Source of the DNA: a virus
Virus genome (UHGV): UHGV-1977856
Strand: one strand, 5' to 3'
Length of the DNA stretch: 11,273 nucleotides
Of this stretch, positions 1 through 11,273 are shown piece by piece (the first letter of the stretch is position 1; every line of letters begins with the position of its first letter). The notes beneath the pieces were generated by a model, which searched no databases, was not told where the DNA came from, and was given only the letters and a program-made list of their open reading frames with translations. The position numbers were made by a program, and so were the translations under genes.

Positions 1-77
1 CAGACACCACTGACCGCGTCATTAATCACGCAATTCCGGCGAGAATGCGGCTATCTGCAAAGTTAAAACTGCATAAA

Positions 78-117
78 AAAATAGAGTCTGTCGACATCCG
101 CCAGACTCTACAGTACA
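78..117 (-). terminator. Rho-independent terminator-like hairpin oriented for the - strand
   Basis: Perfect inverted repeat tagagtctg...cagactcta with an A-run at 78-84 on + (a T-run 3' of the hairpin on the - strand). No T-run follows on the + strand. Lies in the presumed host flank left of the element. Confidence 0.4.
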
Positions 118-386
118 CACAGCAGTGCATCCGCGTCTTAAGTCCGGCATTGTCTCCTCTGCGCCGGTGACTGTGTTATAACGGTTTTAACCTTTAGTTG
201 CCAATTTTCTTCAGTGACAGATTTCACGAAAATATAAGTTACATTATTAATATCGTGATTTTATAAATTAGTGTTTTTTGCTGTTTCATAATGTGCCACG
301 TTGTTCATTATGTTTTTGATTTTTAAGCTCATTGCAATTTTTCTTGTTCCAACTTGTTCCACGTTGTACCCCCTTGTGCAATGATC

Positions 387-411
387 GGTGTAGTTAATGG
401 TGTAGTTAATT
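387..411. repeat. Left terminal direct repeat ggtgtagttaatggtgtagttaatt (tandem 12-mer); candidate integrase arm-type site or att repeat
   Basis: Exact 25-bp match to 11026-11050; extends to 29 bp with one mismatch (ga[t/a]cggtg...). Ends immediately before the int start. Confidence 0.6.
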
Positions 412-4639: not shown

Positions 4640-6051
4640 AATTGGCACCGAACTTAAAAAAACAGCCACACGACAAAATGACCGAAGTCATTATTTTTGC
4701 GGGTAGTGATGCCTGGGCGCACGCGAAACAATGGCAGGAACAGGACGGGCGACTTGCTGGCGACAACGTGCCACCTGTATGGCTTGGAGACAGCCAGCTT
4801 GACGAACTGGCAGACCTGAAAATCATCGATGATGGTCGCTATTGTGTCCGGCTGTACAAGGCAGGCCACATCAAGCCGTCAAATATTAATGCCATCGGGC
4901 AAAAGCTGGCGGCGGCAGGTGTACGGGATGCGAATTATTACCCTGAGGGAATGCACAGCCAGAAGCTGGAGAACTGGCACGACTACCTGCAACGGATCCG
5001 CGAACAGACAGAGCGCGGGGAAATACTTACTGACGAGCAATACAGCCAGCGAAAAACCACGCTACCAATGAGCATTGGATCTGCAGGGTACGACACACAG
5101 CTTGATTATGTCGTTAAGGGCGTGATTCCGGCTAATTCATTGTGCAGCACATACGGCGCGAGCGGTTCCTATAAATCGTTCCTCGCGTGTTCCTGGGCGT
5201 GTCATGTTGCCACGGGTCGCCACTGGGGAGGCCGCAGGGTGGCGCATGGTTCGGTGATGTATGTCGTCGGTGAAGGGGGGATAGGTGTCCCCCGTCGTAT
5301 CAAGGCATGGGAAATCGTTAATGATGAACGGGTGGAAAATCTGTACCTGGTAAACCGCCCGATTTTTCCGGCAGTCCCGCTTGATGTCGATGAAATGGTC
5401 ATCGCTTCCCGCCAGGTTGAACGGGAAACGGGTAAACCGGTACGCATGATTATTCTGGATACGCTGGCGCGTTGCTTTGGCGGTAATGATGAAAATGACG
5501 CGCGGGATATGGGGGCGTTTATCCGTGGATGTGACGAACTGAAACGACGCACAGGGGCCACAGTGCTGGTGGTTCACCATTCCGGCAAGGATGAAACAAA
5601 GGGGGCGCGTGGTTCCAGTGCATTTCGTGCATCTCTGGACGCTGAATACCGTATTCGCCGTGAAGGTGCAGACAGTGAAGCCCTGGTTATCTCCTGCACC
5701 AAAATGAAGGACGCGGAGGAACTGAAAGAGGCTGCATACGATTTACGTGTGGTGGAGCTTTTTACCGACACTGACGGGGAGTTAATCACGTCGCTGGTGG
5801 TTGTGGATAAACCGCGCCCACCCGTTGAACTGGAGCGCATCGAGGAAGCCGGGAACAAGACGGAGAATCATGCCGCGCTATGGGGCTGTATCCGTTCACG
5901 CACACAGCGCGGCGATAAATGCACAATTCCGTTGTTGCGTGATGATATGAAAAAGCTGGGGTATGAGATGAAACACTTCCGGCGCTGGCTGTACAAGCTG
6001 GAAGGTGATGGCGTTATTGCTATTGACGGTGATGACGTGTGCCCACTGTAA
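4636..6051 (+). CDS. Replication initiator / helicase with RecA-like (AAA_25, RepA-like) ATPase domain; N-terminal ~160 aa of unknown function
   Basis: 471 aa. P-loop-like GASGSYKS, Walker B-like MIILDTLARCFGG, and a VVHHSGKD motif typical of RepA-like helicases. Followed directly by an iteron array. No primase motifs recognised by eye. Confidence 0.8.
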   Translation: MKLAPNLKKQPHDKMTEVIIFAGSDAWAHAKQWQEQDGRLAGDNVPPVWLGDSQLDELADLKIIDDGRYCVRLYKAGHIKPSNINAIGQKLAAAGVRDANYYPEGMHSQKLENWHDYLQRIREQTERGEILTDEQYSQRKTTLPMSIGSAGYDTQLDYVVKGVIPANSLCSTYGASGSYKSFLACSWACHVATGRHWGGRRVAHGSVMYVVGEGGIGVPRRIKAWEIVNDERVENLYLVNRPIFPAVPLDVDEMVIASRQVERETGKPVRMIILDTLARCFGGNDENDARDMGAFIRGCDELKRRTGATVLVVHHSGKDETKGARGSSAFRASLDAEYRIRREGADSEALVISCTKMKDAEELKEAAYDLRVVELFTDTDGELITSLVVVDKPRPPVELERIEEAGNKTENHAALWGCIRSRTQRGDKCTIPLLRDDMKKLGYEMKHFRRWLYKLEGDGVIAIDGDDVCPL

Positions 6052-6245
6052 AAAGTGGGTAGTAAAAGTGGGGAGTGTGGGGAATTTAACAAAATTGAAA
6101 CGCGATTCCCCACTTTCCCACCTGTATATACCCCAAAAAGTGGGGAATAAAAATACATTGAAAAACATCACGTTAGAATCACAAAAAAAGAAGTGGGGAG
6201 ATGTTGGGTAATTTCAAAAAGTGGGTAGTAAAAGTGGGGAGCAGT
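6052..6245. repeat. Iteron-type replication origin
   Basis: AAGTGGG(G/T)A(G/A) recurs at 6053, 6066, 6077, 6138, 6191, 6219 and 6232, plus one inverted copy (ttccccactt, 6106-6115). A 24-bp block aaaagtgggtagtaaaagtggggag is duplicated at 6051-6075 and 6217-6241, bracketing an AT-rich core (6150-6190). Confidence 0.7.
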
Positions 6246-6502: not shown

Positions 6503-6921
6503 CAGCACAGATAGCGGCTTACGGGCGGCTGGTGGCTGACCCGCAGTTAAAGACCACCAGCAAAGGGACACAAATGGCGATGGCGAGTATGGCTGTTCCC
6601 CTTCCGTGTAGCCAGGCAGATGACGGAACGGCGACGATGTGGTTATCCGTCCTGGCGTTTGGCAGGCAGGCCGACGCACTGGCAAAGCACCACAAAGGCG
6701 AACTGGTGAGCGTGGCGGGTAACATGCAGGTAAGCCAGTGGACAGGCCAGAACGGCGAAACGCGGCAGGGCTGGCAGGTTATCGCAGACAGCGTAATCAG
6801 TGCCAGAACGGCGCGACCGGGCGGCAAAAAAGGCCAGCAGGGCCAGGCTACTGACGCACTGAACAGGGCAAAACAACAGGCGGGAAATGATGATCCGTAC
6901 GGGGATAACATACCGTTTTAA
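6499..6921 (+). CDS. ssb: Single-stranded DNA-binding protein (SSB family)
   Basis: 140 aa. OB-fold SSB pattern (YGRLVADPQLKTTSKG...MWLSVLAFGRQADALAKHHKGELVSVAGNMQVSQW...QGWQVIADSV), a Gly/Gln-rich linker, and an acidic C-terminal tail ending DDPYGDNIPF (compare the canonical DDDIPF). Confidence 0.8.
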   Translation: MTAQIAAYGRLVADPQLKTTSKGTQMAMASMAVPLPCSQADDGTATMWLSVLAFGRQADALAKHHKGELVSVAGNMQVSQWTGQNGETRQGWQVIADSVISARTARPGGKKGQQGQATDALNRAKQQAGNDDPYGDNIPF

Positions 6922-6935
6922 GCAACGAGTGACAG

Positions 6936-6960
6936 AAGCCGGAACAATCCGGCTTTTTTA
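6936..6960 (+). terminator. Rho-independent terminator after ssb
   Basis: Hairpin agccgg-aacaat-ccggct followed by tttttta, 15 nt after the ssb stop. Confidence 0.7.
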
Positions 6961-7034
6961 CGGGTCCTCCCGATGGAGTGGCCTTGCCACGGGGCGGGAG
7001 CGGCGCGGAAAAAGGCTGGTTTTTGCATTTTCAT
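6954..7034. repeat. Copy A of a duplicated ~80-bp GC-rich element containing a cosN-like motif
   Basis: Near-identical to 9489-9570; differs only in an internal segment (atggagtggcc versus gtgtggtgtcc). Contains ACGGGGCGGGAGCGGCGCGG at 6989-7008. Confidence 0.75.
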
Positions 7035-7345
7035 GGCGGCGGCAGCATGTGTGATAATTTATTGATAATTAAAAATTATTTCTGTTTTTACCTGTACAAT
7101 ATTTTTTTCTCCATGTCATTAGACCAGTTTGCAATTAATTGAAATATATAAATAAATTTGTTTTTCACCTGCCAGATGGAGTTGCCTGTGCAAAATGTGT
7201 TCAGATGGCGGGATATTTATGCCGGATTCTCTCCGGCTTTTTTGTGTCTGAATCTGATCAATCTATTTTTATGATAGAAATATGTTTATCTACCACTTTT
7301 ATCGATCAATAATGCGCGCAGTTTAGTCAGTAAGAGGAAGTTACT

Positions 7346-7555
7346 GTGAATTGTATTAACGACCTGAACACAGGCGAGGTAAAAGGTGGTTCCGTTCATC
7401 TGGATGCGCAGACCGTTATGCGCCTTAAGCAGTACAGGATCGACCACATAAATCATCATCCTGACCAACCATTACCAGGTGTGGCGCAGATTGTCAGACA
7501 CGCAGTTAACGCGTGGCTTGATAAGAATGGTTTTGCATCTGGGGGTGAGCAATGA
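7346..7555 (+). CDS. Hypothetical small protein (69 aa), first gene of the capsid operon
   Basis: GTG start with a strong SD (aagaggaag, about 6-nt spacing); its stop overlaps the protease::MCP start (ATGA). Confidence 0.55.
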   Translation: MNCINDLNTGEVKGGSVHLDAQTVMRLKQYRIDHINHHPDQPLPGVAQIVRHAVNAWLDKNGFASGGEQ

Positions 7556-9465
7556 ATCACTGGTACACCATTAAGGCGGCGGGTGTTCGCGGAGCGGCAG
7601 AAATATCCATCTATGAAGAAATTGGCGGCTTCGGTATCACCGCGAAGCAGTTTGCGGAAGACCTGAAAGCCCTGGGCGATGTCTCACATATCGACCTGCG
7701 GATCCATTCGCCAGGTGGTGACGTGTTTGAAGGCATCGCCATCTATAACCTGTTACGGAATCATCCGGCAGAAATTACGGTTTATATCGATGGTGTTGCG
7801 GCTTCAATGGCTTCGGTTGTCGCAATGGCTGGCGATCGTGTTGTGATGCCGGAAAACGCCATGATGATGATACATAAGCCGTGGGGTATCTCTGGCGGAA
7901 ATGCTGGTGATATGCGTGATTATGCTGATTTGCTGGATAAGGTGGAAACCGTGTTAGTCCCTGCTTATGCCAGAAAAACGGGCAAATCAGCACAGGAAAT
8001 TACCGCCATGCTGGAAGATGAAACCTGGATGGACGGGAAAGAATGCCTTAAGCACGGTTTTGCTGATGAATTGTTGCCATCTGTCACAGCAATGGCGCGA
8101 ATTGAATCGAAACGCACAGGAGATTTTTCACACATGCCGGAAACCATTAAAGGAATGATTACCCCGCCACAGGGAGCAGCCAATATTGCTGGTAATGAAC
8201 AGAAGCGCATCAACGGAATAAGTGAAGTGTTTAGCCTGTTCGGCAGTCGTTACGACGGGATCAAAATGGCGTGCCTGGAAGATGCATCATGTACACCGGA
8301 GATGGCCCGTGAAAAGTTGTTGAACGAGATGGGGCGCGAGTCCACGCCATCCAATAAAAATACCCCGGCTCATATTTATGCCGGTAACGGGAACATAACA
8401 GGCGATGCAATTCGTCAGGGGCTTTATTCCCGTCTCGGGTATGAACGCCCAGAGCGGGGAAATCCTTACGCGATGATGAGCCTTTTTGAAATGGCCCAGG
8501 CATCACTAACGGATCGTGGTATCAGTGTTGGCGGTTTTTTAAATCGCTCGCAGGTCGTTAATGCAGCTTTCACACACAGCAGCAGCGATTTTTCTCACAT
8601 TCTGGCTGGTGGTGCTGAAAAATCAGTACTGAAAGGCTGGCAGGACAGCGGCGAAACGTTCCAGAAATGGACGCGTACCGGATCGCTTTCAAACTTTCAT
8701 GAAGCAAAGCGCGTTGGTCTGAATGGTTTTTCAAAGCTGGATAAAGTACCGGAAGGTGCGGAATATAAATACATCACCACCAGCGATAAAGGTGTACCTA
8801 TTGCGCTGGCCACATACGGTAATATTTTTTCTGTTACCCGTCAGGCCATTATCAACGATGACCTGACCCAGTTAACTACAATCCCCATGGCGATGGGGCG
8901 TGCGGCCGCCAGAACAGTAGGTAATCTGGTTTATCTTCTGTTAACCAGCAACGGCAAATTTACGGATAGTAAAGCGTTATTCCATGCCGATCATAAAAAT
9001 CTTATTGCGAAGGATATGGACATGGAGGGGCTTAACGAAGCCCGTAAGCTGATGCGACTACAGGAGGATGCCAACGGCGACTCCCTGAATATTACCCCCG
9101 CATTTGTCCTGGTCCCCGCCGCGCTGGAGTCTGCCGCACATCGCGCCATTCTGTCATCGTCATCACTCTTTCCGGTTGATGGTGATGGCACTATCAATCA
9201 GAACCCCGGCATCATTAACGTGGTGAAAGATATGGCTGAGGTTATTGTTGAGCCACGTCTTGATAAGAACAATAACAAGGAGTGGTATGTAGCCGCAGCG
9301 AAAGGGATGGACACGATAGAGGTCGCTTATCTTGATGGTATTGATACGCCATATCTTGAGGAGCAGGTGGGCTTTACTGTTGATGGTGTCGCCTGGAAGG
9401 TGCGCATAGATGCAGGTGTCGCGGCCCTCGATTATCGTGGACTACTGAAATCGAACGGAGCATGA
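7552..9465 (+). CDS. Fusion protein: ClpP-like (S14) prohead protease N-terminal domain + HK97-fold / Mu gpT-like major capsid protein C-terminal domain
   Basis: 637 aa. N-terminus carries ClpP motifs (HSPGGDVFEGIAIYNLL...IDGVAASMASVVAMAGDRVVMPENAMMMIHKPWG). C-terminal ~330 aa fit the major-head-subunit pattern (KYITTSDKGVPIALATYGNIFSVTRQAIINDDL...IPMAMGRAAART...ITPAFVLVPAALESAA). Confidence 0.85.
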   Translation: MNHWYTIKAAGVRGAAEISIYEEIGGFGITAKQFAEDLKALGDVSHIDLRIHSPGGDVFEGIAIYNLLRNHPAEITVYIDGVAASMASVVAMAGDRVVMPENAMMMIHKPWGISGGNAGDMRDYADLLDKVETVLVPAYARKTGKSAQEITAMLEDETWMDGKECLKHGFADELLPSVTAMARIESKRTGDFSHMPETIKGMITPPQGAANIAGNEQKRINGISEVFSLFGSRYDGIKMACLEDASCTPEMAREKLLNEMGRESTPSNKNTPAHIYAGNGNITGDAIRQGLYSRLGYERPERGNPYAMMSLFEMAQASLTDRGISVGGFLNRSQVVNAAFTHSSSDFSHILAGGAEKSVLKGWQDSGETFQKWTRTGSLSNFHEAKRVGLNGFSKLDKVPEGAEYKYITTSDKGVPIALATYGNIFSVTRQAIINDDLTQLTTIPMAMGRAAARTVGNLVYLLLTSNGKFTDSKALFHADHKNLIAKDMDMEGLNEARKLMRLQEDANGDSLNITPAFVLVPAALESAAHRAILSSSSLFPVDGDGTINQNPGIINVVKDMAEVIVEPRLDKNNNKEWYVAAAKGMDTIEVAYLDGIDTPYLEEQVGFTVDGVAWKVRIDAGVAALDYRGLLKSNGA

Positions 9466-9472
9466 CAACAAG

Positions 9473-9495
9473 GGCGGCGACAGCCGCCTTTTTTT
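9473..9495 (+). terminator. Rho-independent terminator after the capsid gene; stem overlaps a lambda cohesive-end-like GGGCGGCGAC
   Basis: Hairpin ggcggc-gaca-gccgcc followed by ttttttt, 8 nt after the stop. Confidence 0.65.
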
Positions 9496-9570
9496 ACGGG
9501 TCCTCCCGGTGTGGTGTCCTTGCCACGGGGCGGGAGCGGCGCGGAAAAAGGCTGGTTTTTGCATTTTCAT
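9489..9570. repeat. Copy B of the duplicated ~80-bp GC-rich element containing a cosN-like motif
   Basis: Matches 6954-7034. Contains ACGGGGCGGGAGCGGCGCGG at 9525-9544. Confidence 0.75.
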
Positions 9571-9723
9571 TCGTCATTATCATCTTTCTATCATATTGAA
9601 TATTAAGTGTTTTTATTTTTGGTATGTTAATTTCGCTTATTTTGTGTTCAACATGCAGCGCGTTTTTTGACCTTTTTTGAAAGATATTTGCAAGATGCAT
9701 GTTTAAAACATTCTGGAGCGGGT

Positions 9724-10209
9724 ATGGATCGGGAACTGAAAAATCTGATGCTGAACATTAACCAGCTGGCGGCGATAGCGGGAATATGTCGCCAGACTGC
9801 GGCGGCAAGGCTGAAAAATATCCAGCCAGCCGGAGGACATGACAAGCTGAAACTCTATCGGGTGACTGACATTCTGACCTGTTTTCTTGATCTTCCCGTT
9901 CCGGCATCACTGGAAGAAATGGAGCCACACGACCGTAAGGCCTGGTATCAGTCCGAACGTGAGCGCCTCAAGTTCGAACAGGAAACGGCGCAACTCATAC
10001 CCGCCGATGATGTGCGAAAAGAGATGGCTATATGGGGAGAAATCGTAAGCGAGGAACTGGAAAAACTCCCCAGTATTCTGGCACGTGATGCTGGGCTTAA
10101 ACCGATGGCAGTAAACAGAGTGCAGTCAATTATTGACGATTTGTGTAATCAGATTATCAGCCGGATGGTGAAAAATGACGTAGTGAATGAGGTCGCAAAA
10201 CAGGCATGA
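9724..10209 (+). CDS. Small terminase subunit, lambda Nu1-like (N-terminal winged-HTH); candidate packaging-specificity / redirection protein
   Basis: ATG 9724 has an SD (GGAG, 7-nt spacing); the ORF-track start 9667 is a TTG. The 162-aa product parallels lambda gpNu1 in length and pattern: NINQLAAIAGICRQTAAARL / AGGHDKLKLYRVTDIL versus Nu1 NKKQLADIFGASIRTIQNW / GGGKGNEVLYDSAAVI, and C-terminal EIVSEELEKLPSILARD versus IAGEIASILDGLPLSV (Nu1 recalled from memory). Confidence 0.7.
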   Translation: MDRELKNLMLNINQLAAIAGICRQTAAARLKNIQPAGGHDKLKLYRVTDILTCFLDLPVPASLEEMEPHDRKAWYQSERERLKFEQETAQLIPADDVRKEMAIWGEIVSEELEKLPSILARDAGLKPMAVNRVQSIIDDLCNQIISRMVKNDVVNEVAKQA

Positions 10210-10539: not shown

Positions 10540-11025
10540 AGACGGTATTTAAATCGGGTGGTGTTTAATACCCCCAGGGGGATAGAAATCCCTACACCTC
10601 ATTGCTTATGGGACCGCCCGCCTACCCTTGTTCACATCGCCGCAGGTTCGAAAACTTTTTTTGGGAAGGTGTGCACGGGATTGATAGATGAGGTCTATCT
10701 ATAAAAAATCACAAAATCCGCGCCATTGCTGGATCCGCCAAAAATCCCCCACCTTACGGCAGACAAAGAAAACGCGAATTATGGGCCTGTTGCAGAGAAA
10801 AAAGGTCTCACTAGTTTTGCGCACCCTAGCATCGAGGTTCGTCAGCCTCCCATCAGCAACCAGATAACTAATCTCGCTGGTGGGCATGATGCCGATATGG
10901 GGACTTCCATAACGGTTTATCCGTGATCATCCACCAGCTTCATGGCGGATAGCCGGAAAATGATAACGGTATAGCCCGTCGCTTGTGTCTATTTGTTCCG
11001 CATTGTTGCATACAGTGCACCGAAC

Positions 11026-11050
11026 GGTGTAGTTAATGGTGTAGTTAATT
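11026..11050. repeat. Right terminal direct repeat ggtgtagttaatggtgtagttaatt
   Basis: Exact 25-bp match to 387-411. Confidence 0.6.
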
Positions 11051-11267
11051 TGCGATTTTTAACGTTATTTGCAGCGATGTTTGTTGGTTAAATTCAATAA
11101 GTTATGCGCATTTAATTATAAATATCGTGAATGAATAATCATGCATAAGCATTTTGCTTAAAATATCGGCAATATTTGGAACTTATTACTGGAATTTTGG
11201 GTAATACGTTGTTGGACCGACCCGGTCTGGTTATCATATCGCGCTCTTAATTGCGGGAGGATGTAAC

Positions 11268-11273
11268 ATGAAC
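11268..11273 (+). CDS. Start of an unidentified flanking gene (truncated by the window end)
   Basis: SD gggagg at 11255-11260 followed by ATG at 11268; only two codons are visible. Confidence 0.3.

What the first reader, a model, noticed from the sequence alone, without database searches (positions are those of the whole stretch)
6954..7034. An ~80-bp GC-rich element is duplicated, placing a second cosN-like motif upstream of the capsid operon
Copy A (6954-7034) and copy B (9489-9570) are near-identical, each directly after a rho-independent terminator and before an AT-rich leader of a morphogenesis operon. Both contain ACGGGGCGGGAGCGGCGCGG and a potential stem (ctcccg ... cgggag enclosing gtggc-ctt-gccac in copy A). 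Copy A has no cosB-like sequence downstream. Possible roles: a secondary or decoy terminase cut site, a cosQ-like termination signal (a cut at A after initiation at B would package about 8.3 kb rather than about 10.9 kb), a shared regulatory or structured-RNA element, or a module-junction recombination scar. The internal differences (atggagtggcc versus gtgtggtgtcc) deserve a check for compensatory base pairing.
Basis: seen in the sequence. Interest (0 to 1): 0.7.

Follow-up and report, generated by a model that had tools for sequence, protein, structure and literature searches.

The report
Two packaging (cos) sites in a satellite
The repeated 81-base element is the DNA-packaging cut site (cos) of lambda-like phages, present twice in a small E. 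coli phage satellite: once with a recognition flank copied from one group of helper phages, and once with a private flank next to the satellite's own small terminase gene, so the satellite probably has two routes into phage particles.

Summary
The repeat is real: 6954-7034 and 9490-9570 match at 77 of 81 bases. The window is a 10,872-bp phage satellite of the EcCICFT073 (PICI) family, inserted between abgR and smrA of E. coli.

The repeat aligns base for base with the lambda cos site. It holds cosQ (GGGTCCT), then 23 nt to the nick, then cosN with a predicted 12-nt end GGGCGGGAGCGG. The GenBank records of phages cdtI and Tritos begin at exactly that base.

The 165 nt after copy A are 91% identical to the cosB of cdtI, Tritos and HannyBb, as far as the first 8 codons of their terS. 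Copy B is followed by a different cosB, seen full-length almost only in satellites, and then by the satellite's own terS.

The repeat ends at bp 43, just before the position of lambda R3, where small-terminase-specific DNA would begin. There is no RNA covariation and no genome-wide (REP-like) spread.

Best reading, which is inferred: one large-terminase core serves two small-terminase specificities, giving two packaging routes.

Two cos sites are already published for EcCICFT073, in a different arrangement. This is a new variant of a known kind, of moderate interest.

The parts
243..266 (+). attL. The 24-nt imperfect repeat is shared with attR, which gives an island of 10,872 bp.
   Evidence: The empty site in strain YD786 aligns to window 1-266 and 11115-11273 with a 24-nt overlap. 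Repeat family D11.
6938..6959 (+). Terminator-like hairpin and T6 after the SSB gene. The T-run is the first 6 nt of copy A.
   Evidence: Read. The same hairpin and T-run precede the A-position cos in all related satellites.
6954..7034 (+). Copy A of the 81-nt repeat: the cos core shared by all small-terminase types (cosQ to bp 43 right of the nick).
6962..6968 (+). cosQ of cos-A (GGGTCCT), 23 nt before the predicted nick, the same spacing as in lambda.
   Evidence: The definition of cosQ as this heptamer is from my own knowledge of the Feiss laboratory's work.
6990..7005 (.). cosN of cos-A. The predicted 12-nt cohesive end GGGCGGGAGCGG is 6992-7003.
   Evidence: Alignment to the lambda end junction. 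The cdtI and Tritos records start at the homologous base, and cdtI ends ...CCACG.
7035..7175 (+). cosB of cos-A, cdtI type. The lambda R3-equivalent position (bp 50-65) is 7041-7056. An exact match to the reverse IHF consensus, TAATTTATTGATA, lies at 7055-7067.
   Evidence: 91% identity to cdtI, Tritos and HannyBb bp 41-208. In the same flank cluster as 25 phage-context cos sites, counting cdtI and Tritos. Present in 766 of 5426 E. coli genomes.
7176..7243 (+). Remnant of a cdtI-type terS. The first 8 codons run to 7199, then the sequence diverges. A terminator-like hairpin follows at 7221-7237 with a T-run.
   Evidence: The same junction is found in most related clade-1 satellites.
7346..7555 (+). 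69-aa protein of unknown function (phrog_4934), the first gene of the capsid operon.
   Evidence: It is kept at 37-41% amino-acid identity in the diverged satellite clade.
7552..9465 (+). ClpP-like prohead protease fused to the major capsid protein (637 aa).
   Evidence: About 57% identical to the helper-type phage fusion protein.
9473..9495 (+). Terminator-like hairpin and T7 after the capsid gene. All but the first T of the T-run (9490-9495) form the start of copy B.
9490..9570 (+). Copy B of the 81-nt repeat (cos core).
9498..9504 (+). cosQ of cos-B (GGGTCCT).
9526..9541 (.). cosN of cos-B. The predicted cohesive end is 9528-9539 and is identical to that of cos-A.
9571..9723 (+). cosB of cos-B, satellite-specific type. 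Conserved blocks lie at the positions of lambda R3 (9570-9588), R2 in inverted orientation (GGTATGTTAAT, 9621-9631) and R1 (GTTCAACAT, 9647-9655).
   Evidence: Collinear with phage cos-to-terS, but only 70-75% identical to any phage. Found at full length in 195 E. coli genomes, close to the 184 that hold the whole module. Conserved blocks in 21 distinct sites.
9724..10209 (+). Satellite small terminase (DUF1441, 161 aa).
11115..11138 (+). attR.

Best explanation
Each copy is a complete lambda-type cos site of a phage satellite.

The 81-nt repeat is the part of cos read by the large terminase (TerL). It runs from cosQ through cosN to about 43 bp to the right of the nick, and it is common to several lambdoid phage lineages whose TerL nuclease domains are nearly identical. 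Where the repeat ends, DNA specific for the small terminase (TerS) begins, and it differs between the two copies.

- cos-A carries the cosB of cdtI/Tritos-type phages. A helper of that type should therefore recognise the satellite with its own TerS.
- cos-B carries a private cosB next to the satellite's own terS. This TerS presumably recruits a helper's TerL to the satellite and not to the phage, as Rpp or SaPI TerS do in other islands.

The satellite thus has two independent ways to start packaging, which probably widens its helper range.

Both sites also carry cosQ and cosN in the same orientation and have identical 12-nt ends. Either could therefore also end a packaging run. Which pairs of sites bound a packaged molecule will depend on head filling.

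Shown: the homology, the positions, the flank types, and conservation across the family. Inferred: cutting at these bases, which TerS binds which cosB, and the benefit to the satellite.
For: - The repeat aligns with the lambda junction ...TTTACGGGTCCT-23 nt-ACG|GGGCGG...CGCGG.
- In phages the element lies between Rz and terS. The cdtI and Tritos records begin at the predicted bp 1, and cdtI ends at ...CCACG.
- The cos-A flank is 91% identical to cdtI/Tritos cosB. That flank type includes 27 satellite A-position sites and 25 phage-context sites, counting cdtI and Tritos themselves. It occurs in 766 of 5426 E. coli genomes; in the sampled rows the lower-identity matches (90-95% band, 672 records) lie at the start of a DUF1441 terS gene.
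- The cos-B flank type has 33 sites, all in satellites and all followed by the satellite terS. No phage is more than 75% identical to it. Its conserved blocks sit at the R3, R2 (inverted) and R1 positions.
- Satellite TerS is 64-71% identical to mEp460/606R10 TerS and 33% identical to cdtI TerS. cdtI and 606R10 TerL are 88% identical overall and nearly identical from residue 380 onward.
- The cosA-p69-capsid-cosB module is found in 184 complete E. coli genomes. It is also found in satellites with unrelated integrase and primase modules.
- A diverged clade (capsid 62% identical) also has a cos on both sides of the capsid gene, with other cosB types.
- The cos-A cosB is more conserved (94-98%) than third codon positions of the adjacent capsid gene (86-87%).
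- Precedent: both cos sites of the related island EcCICFT073 work in transfer assays (PMC6092414, PMC6739421).
Against: - There are no particle-end data for this satellite or for these phages in what I could read. I could not check whether the cdtI and Tritos record starts were mapped physically.
- Which helper's TerL works with the satellite TerS is unknown. The C-terminal, TerL-binding part of the satellite TerS differs from all the phage TerS proteins compared.
- In EcCICFT073, deleting cos2 raised transfer (PMC6092414). A second cos is therefore not necessarily beneficial.
- The high conservation of the cos-A flank could reflect recent recombination with phages rather than selection.
- An internal cos in direct orientation could cause unproductive cutting.
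Confidence: 0.6

Rival explanations
1. cos-A is an unused relic. The capsid cassette was acquired from, or through recombination with, a cdtI-like phage at its cos. The site is carried along without being cut, and only cos-B with the satellite TerS matters.
For: A truncated cdtI-type terS start follows cos-A with the same junction in most related clade-1 satellites, which points to one ancestral recombination event. A capsid-less relative, L015, has a single cos. A third clade (capsid 71-80% identical) has only the cos after the capsid gene.
Against: cosQ, cosN and the whole cosB are intact and more conserved than neighbouring synonymous sites. In a diverged clade the A-position cos has been replaced by another cosB type rather than lost. 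The two cores are kept alike within elements. Both sites work in EcCICFT073 (PMC6092414).
Confidence: 0.15
2. cos-A acts mainly in termination, sizing or interference. It could be an extra cosQ-cosN stop that yields 8.3-kb capsid-less genomes or gives more length choices for filling large heads. It could also be a decoy that soaks up helper terminase.
For: Both sites have cosQ and cosN in direct orientation with identical 12-nt ends. B to A is 8,336 bp, 77% of the unit. L015 has exactly the hybrid cos (A left half, B right half) expected from a B-start, A-stop molecule that circularised.
Against: A stop signal needs no cosB, yet a full phage-identical cosB is kept. L015 can equally be explained by homologous recombination between the 81-nt repeats, or as the ancestral form. 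By my own knowledge of lambda, a cos met before the head is nearly full is poorly cut.
Confidence: 0.15
3. The repeat is a structured RNA or a shared transcriptional control element of the two morphogenesis operons.
For: Each copy folds somewhat better than shuffled sequence (z -2.8 and -2.6) and sits after a terminator.
Against: There is no covariation in 21 aligned sites: 4 double changes, within the range of the shuffled and slid controls, and many changes break pairs. There is no relevant Rfam match. The same sequence in phages lies at the cos position with no terminator before it. cos-A is bracketed by terminator-like hairpins on both sides, so it is poorly placed to be an operon leader.
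Confidence: 0.04
4. It is a REP-like chromosomal repeat.
For: It is GC-rich, partly palindromic and intergenic.
Against: At megablast sensitivity it is found in only 258 of 5426 genomes, at 1-5 places each. Every site examined is a phage cos position or lies in a satellite.
Confidence: 0.01

Closest known systems
EcCICFT073 cos1 and cos2 (E. coli PICI; Fillol-Salom et al. 2018 ISME J, PMC6092414; 2019 Mol Cell, PMC6739421)
   Same: It has the same island backbone: int, alpA, ylcI, icd-like, DUF4222, primase, SSB, a small ORF, capsid gene(s), a packaging-specificity gene, and a 93-95 aa ORF. It has two cos sites with phage-like cosQ and cosN and two different cosB regions. One cos sits directly upstream of the island's packaging-specificity gene and follows a terminator T-run.
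   Different: The EcCICFT073 sites are inverted, about 0.75 kb apart, and flank rppA, with none upstream of the capsid gene. Here they are direct repeats 2.5 kb apart that flank the capsid operon. The cohesive end differs: GGGCGGGAGCGG here, the lambda GGGCGGCGACCT there. The specificity gene here is a full DUF1441 TerS, not Rpp; RppA has no homologue in the window. The capsid gene here is a protease-capsid fusion.
Phage lambda cos (cosQ-cosN-cosB; reviewed in PMC9026076)
   Same: The cosQ heptamer is identical, the cosQ-to-nick spacing is the same 23 nt, ACG|GGGCGG and CGCGG flank the nicks, cosB follows at the R3 position, and terS comes next.
   Different: The cohesive-end sequence differs in 5 of its last 6 positions. 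8 of 16 cosN positions are symmetric, against 10 of 16 in lambda (my count from the sequences). The R sequences differ. The site is present twice in one small replicon.
Helper-cos mimicry by satellites (P4 with P2; SaPIbov5 with cos phages; cited in bioRxiv 10.1101/2022.09.08.507074 and PMC5052747)
   Same: cos-A looks like a copy of a helper's own cos, so the helper terminase can package the satellite without any satellite factor.
   Different: Those satellites rely on one helper-type cos. Here a second, private cos with its own TerS is added. Two putative cos sites are mentioned for SaPIbov4 (PMC6092414).
SaPI TerS and Rpp redirection of packaging
   Same: An island-encoded DNA-recognition subunit paired with an island-specific site next to its gene.
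   Different: SaPI TerS works with pac (headful) sites. Rpp must pair with the phage TerS. Here the protein is a full-length cos-type TerS, and its dependence on a phage TerS is unknown.
cf-PICI (capsid-forming PICIs)
   Same: The satellite encodes its own capsid protein and a TerS.
   Different: No TerL, portal, HNH or head-tail connector genes are present. It cannot build and fill capsids without a helper's TerL and portal.

Membership tests
lambda-type cos site | cosN: a nicking site homologous to lambda cosN, with nicks 12 nt apart. | tested here: met
   Sequence level only. The alignment with the lambda end junction places ACG|GGGCGGGAGCGG|CGCGG in register. The cdtI and Tritos records start at that base.
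lambda-type cos site | cosQ upstream of cosN at the lambda spacing. | tested here: met
   GGGTCCT lies at 6962-6968 and 9498-9504, and these are the only two in the window. It is 23 nt from the nick, as in lambda.
lambda-type cos site | cosB (small-terminase binding sites and an IHF site) to the right of cosN, leading into terS. | tested here: met
   cos-B is collinear with phage cos-to-terS and has conserved blocks at the R3, R2 and R1 positions. cos-A is 91% identical to the cdtI/Tritos cosB but is followed only by a terS remnant. Protein binding was not tested.
lambda-type cos site | Cut by terminase to give the ends of virion DNA. | not testable with these tools
   No particle-end data were available. 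The metagenome contig L136 is the integrated form.
Gram-negative PICI (EcCICFT073 type) | int, alpA, a primase/replication gene with an adjacent iteron origin, about 10-12 kb, its own att site, and no full set of virion genes. | tested here: met
   Iterons lie at 6050-6241. The island is 10,872 bp between abgR and smrA. Gene order matches EcCICFT073.
Gram-negative PICI (EcCICFT073 type) | Induced and mobilised by a helper phage. | not testable with these tools
Rpp-type packaging redirection | An rpp gene next to the island cos. | tested here: not met
   tblastn of EcCICFT073 RppA against the window finds nothing better than E = 2. The gene after cos-B is a DUF1441 TerS.
cf-PICI | Own TerL, portal, HNH and head-tail connectors. 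| tested here: not met
   Pfam and PHROG scans of the large ORFs and some small ones found no such genes.
Rfam RNA families or a structured RNA | A match to a curated model, or covariation supporting a fold. | tested here: not met
   The only credible Rfam match is McaS, in the host flank. Covariation is not above the controls.
REP/BIME-like chromosomal repeat | Many dispersed copies outside mobile elements. | tested here: not met
   1-5 places per genome in 258 of 5426 genomes. All contexts examined are phage cos sites or satellites.

The most novel reading that the evidence does not exclude
The cos cores act as joints as well as packaging signals. Both sites share one large-terminase core and identical 12-nt ends in direct orientation. 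Terminase could therefore start at cos-B and stop at cos-A, releasing an 8.3-kb molecule that circularises into a capsid-less satellite with one hybrid cos, which is exactly the structure of L015. More generally, cutting and rejoining at cosN, or recombination within the core, would let satellites and phages swap or drop cosB, terS, rpp and capsid cassettes. L071 has a crossover inside cosN, and other elements carry two or three cos sites with different cosB types. Stacked cos sites would then be both a multi-helper passport and the mechanism of module shuffling in this family.
Probability: 0.2. Interest if true: 0.65.

Novelty: new variant of a known kind. Interest (0 to 1): 0.45.

Why it matters
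Fillol-Salom et al. (2019, PMC6739421) left open why some PICIs carry two different cos sites. In this island the two sites can be told apart by sequence alone. They share one core. One has a flank copied from a common prophage lineage, found in 14% of complete E. coli genomes. The other has a private flank paired with the island's own small terminase.

This yields a simple prediction: each cos serves a different helper or a different mode. It can be tested with the plasmid-transfer and deletion assays already used for EcCICFT073. If it holds, the cosB types carried by an island would predict its helper range, which bears on how such islands spread.

Tried and rejected
- **Rfam scan of the whole window.** It found only McaS, in the host flank, plus one chance hit.
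- **RNA folding and covariation.** I folded both strands of both copies and counted pairs on 21 aligned sites. Stability was modest and covariation was not above the controls. The RNA idea was dropped.
- **Small ORF on the minus strand of the repeat.** The four differences between the copies give two amino-acid changes and one silent change, and the ORFs run into unrelated flanks. I did not pursue it (read).
- **Exact-pattern scan of species-representative genomes.** It gave only 2 hits, too few to be useful.
- **Physical ends.** The LR595868 record starts 5 nt before the predicted nick and lacks 3 nt of cosN, so it is not reliable evidence. The mEp460 and Ayreon records were opened at terS by their authors (PMC5764929). 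The cdtI paper is not held. The metagenome contig L136 is the integrated island.
- **The 69-aa protein.** I looked for homology between it and the phage W-like adaptor protein and found none.
- **Candidate helper in strain PI7.** The cos-A flank has a second place in PI7.

Full report
**Observation.** The window holds one long direct repeat, 6954-7034 and 9490-9570, 81 nt with 77 identical bases, 2536 bp apart. Each copy begins in the T-run of a GC-rich hairpin that follows a stop codon: SSB at 6921 and the capsid gene at 9465.

**What the window is.** It matches E. coli strain PI7 at 100% identity. Comparison with an empty site shows a 10,872-bp island between abgR and smrA, with a 24-nt att repeat at 243-266 and 11115-11138. 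The island encodes the following, in order:
- an integrase and AlpA;
- small regulators and a DUF4222 protein;
- a primase/helicase followed by iterons, then SSB;
- copy A;
- a 69-aa protein and a ClpP-protease::major-capsid fusion;
- copy B;
- a DUF1441 small terminase (TerS) and a 95-aa protein.

There is no large terminase (TerL), portal or tail gene. Gene order and several proteins match EcCICFT073, the model Gram-negative PICI. The island is therefore a phage satellite of that family with a different capsid and packaging module.

**What the repeat is.** In phage genomes the element lies between the lysis genes and terS (mEp460, 606R10, Stx phages and others). Aligned to the joined ends of lambda it matches in register:
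- lambda: TTTACGGGTCCT, 23 nt, ACG|GGGCGGCGACCT|CGCGG
- the repeat: TTTACGGGTCCT, 23 nt, ACG|GGGCGGGAGCGG|CGCGG.

GGGTCCT is the lambda cosQ heptamer (from my own knowledge). It occurs only twice in the window, once in each copy. The records of phages cdtI and Tritos begin at GGGCGGGAGCGT, and cdtI ends at ...CCACG, which is exactly the homologous nick position. I could not verify that those ends were mapped physically. The repeat therefore spans cosQ, cosN and about 30 further conserved bp. The predicted cohesive ends are 6992-7003 and 9528-9539 and are identical in the two copies.

**The flanks.**
- cos-A: the 165 nt after copy A (7035-7199) are 91% identical to bp 41-208 of cdtI, Tritos and HannyBb. 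That is their whole cosB and the first 8 codons of terS, after which the satellite diverges into a terminator-like hairpin.
- cos-B: the 153 nt after copy B are collinear with the cos-to-terS interval of mEp460/606R10-type phages but only 70-75% identical to any of them. They lead into the satellite terS.
- TerS: the satellite TerS is 64-71% identical to those phages' TerS and 33% identical to cdtI TerS.
- TerL: cdtI and 606R10 TerL are 88% identical and almost identical from residue 380 onward.

This fits a shared cosQ/cosN core with different cosB regions. The repeat stops at bp 43, just before the position where lambda R3 lies (bp 50-65; PMC9026076).

**Family survey.** I collected 249 cos sites from fetched prophage and satellite loci and clustered their bp 41-175 flanks.
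- The cdtI type holds 27 satellite A-position sites and 25 phage-context sites (counting cdtI and Tritos).
- The cos-B type holds 33 sites. All are in satellites and all are followed by the satellite terS.
- The mEp460/606R10 type holds 85 sites, all in phages.

In complete E. coli genomes:
- the whole cosA-capsid-cosB module is in 184 of 5426 genomes;
- the cos-A flank is in 766, and in the sampled rows the lower-identity matches lie at the start of a prophage DUF1441 terS;
- the full cos-B flank is in 195.

A diverged clade (capsid 62% identical, no TerS or Rpp) also has a cos on each side of the capsid gene, with other cosB types. A third clade has only the downstream site. Other relatives carry three cos sites, or an A-position cos with an mEp460-type cosB.

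Within single elements the two cores share private variants. In this window both have the extra T in CCTTGCC. In L071 both have TTACC. The core of one position often matches the other position of another element best. The cores are therefore kept alike or exchanged.

The cos-A cosB is more conserved between satellites (94-98%) than third codon positions of the adjacent capsid gene (86-87%).

**Alternatives.** There is no relevant Rfam match. The folds are only modestly stable (z about -2.7). On 21 aligned sites the proposed helices show four double changes, within the controls, and many changes that break pairs. These include the T-C mismatch created by the differences between copies A and B. 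The element is not dispersed in the chromosome.

**Mechanism (inferred).** Established lambda biology (PMC9026076) says that initiation needs cosN and cosB, and termination needs cosQ and cosN. On that basis both sites are competent for both steps. A cdtI-type helper should start at cos-A with its own TerS. The satellite TerS should start at cos-B using a helper's TerL, which would favour the island over the phage.

Packaging runs rightward, so:
- from B the next sites come at 8,336 bp (A) and 10,872 bp (B);
- from A they come at 2,536 bp (B) and 10,872 bp (A).

Which site is cut should depend on head filling. Four units, 43.5 kb, would fill a helper-sized head of 44-47 kb. Whether the satellite capsid protein makes small heads is unknown.

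A natural relative, L015, lacks the capsid cassette and has one cos with an A-type left half and a B-type right half. That is the product expected from a B-start, A-stop molecule. Recombination between the repeats, or an ancestral state, would explain it equally well.

**Known and new.** Two functional cos sites with different cosB regions were reported for EcCICFT073, and the reason for having two was left open (PMC6092414, PMC6739421). In CFT073 the two sites are inverted and flank rppA. Three features appear to be new here:
- the direct arrangement around the capsid operon;
- the pairing of one phage-identical cosB with one private cosB plus a full TerS;
- the fact that the repeat boundary marks the switch from TerL-specific to TerS-specific DNA.

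I rate it a new variant of a known kind.

**Caveats.** No cutting, binding or transfer was tested. The helper is not identified. Mosaic recombination with phages could mimic selection on cos-A.

Noticed in passing
L005 6712-19423 (E. coli EBJ001); also L011, L026, L204, L194: Satellites of this family are inserted inside the large terminase gene (terL) of mEp460/606R10-like prophages. The N- and C-terminal terL fragments flank the island, which lies in the same orientation as the prophage cos. The prophage can regain terL only if the island excises. I found no paper describing this in one search.
   Followed up: partly
L015 6300-6520: This relative has the same backbone but no 69-aa gene and no capsid gene. 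It has a single cos between SSB and terS, with an A-type left half and a B-type right half.
   Followed up: yes
L071 9016-9064 and 9891-9963 (also L137, L138): This satellite has three cos sites. The one after the capsid gene is a hybrid whose sequence switches inside cosN to a lambda/EcCICFT073-like right half (GGGCGGCAGACG CGCGGGTTTTCGCTATTTATGAG). An inverted, complete mEp460-type cos follows it.
   Followed up: partly
L135 about 18150-18310, minus strand (EcCICFT073 cos2), compared with L029, L111, L122: The cosB of EcCICFT073 cos2 is of the same type as the cos of three prophage contigs that continue into a terL gene. The shared blocks are CCATGTCCGG and AACCGGACATG. The published papers state that no phage cosB was recognised in that island.
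   Followed up: partly
window 6050-6241: Three copies of a 26-nt iteron (AAAAAGTGGGTAGTAAAAGTGGGGAG) and a 29-nt inverted repeat lie directly after the primase/helicase gene. This is probably the island's replication origin.
   Followed up: no
window 343-411 and 10982-11050: A 69-nt repeat (77% identity) lies just inside attL and attR and ends in tandem GGTGTAGTTAAT. These are probably integrase arm-type or excisionase binding sites.
   Followed up: no
window 73-168 (-): The McaS/IsrA sRNA gene (Rfam, 117.6 bits) lies in the host flank, about 75 nt from attL. The island therefore sits just upstream of this sRNA gene.
   Followed up: no
window 6938-6959 and 7221-7243: cos-A is bracketed by terminator-like hairpins on both sides. 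In the satellites and in EcCICFT073 cos1 a terminator T-run abuts cosQ, whereas the phages have no terminator there.
   Followed up: partly
NZ_CP074033.1 (strain PI7), location not found: The cos-A flank has a second place in the PI7 chromosome. This may be a resident cdtI-type prophage that could act as helper.
   Followed up: no
L009 4825-4864: A contig binned as a Veillonella parvula MAG carries the E. coli-type cos core. It is probably mis-binned enterobacterial phage or satellite DNA.
   Followed up: no
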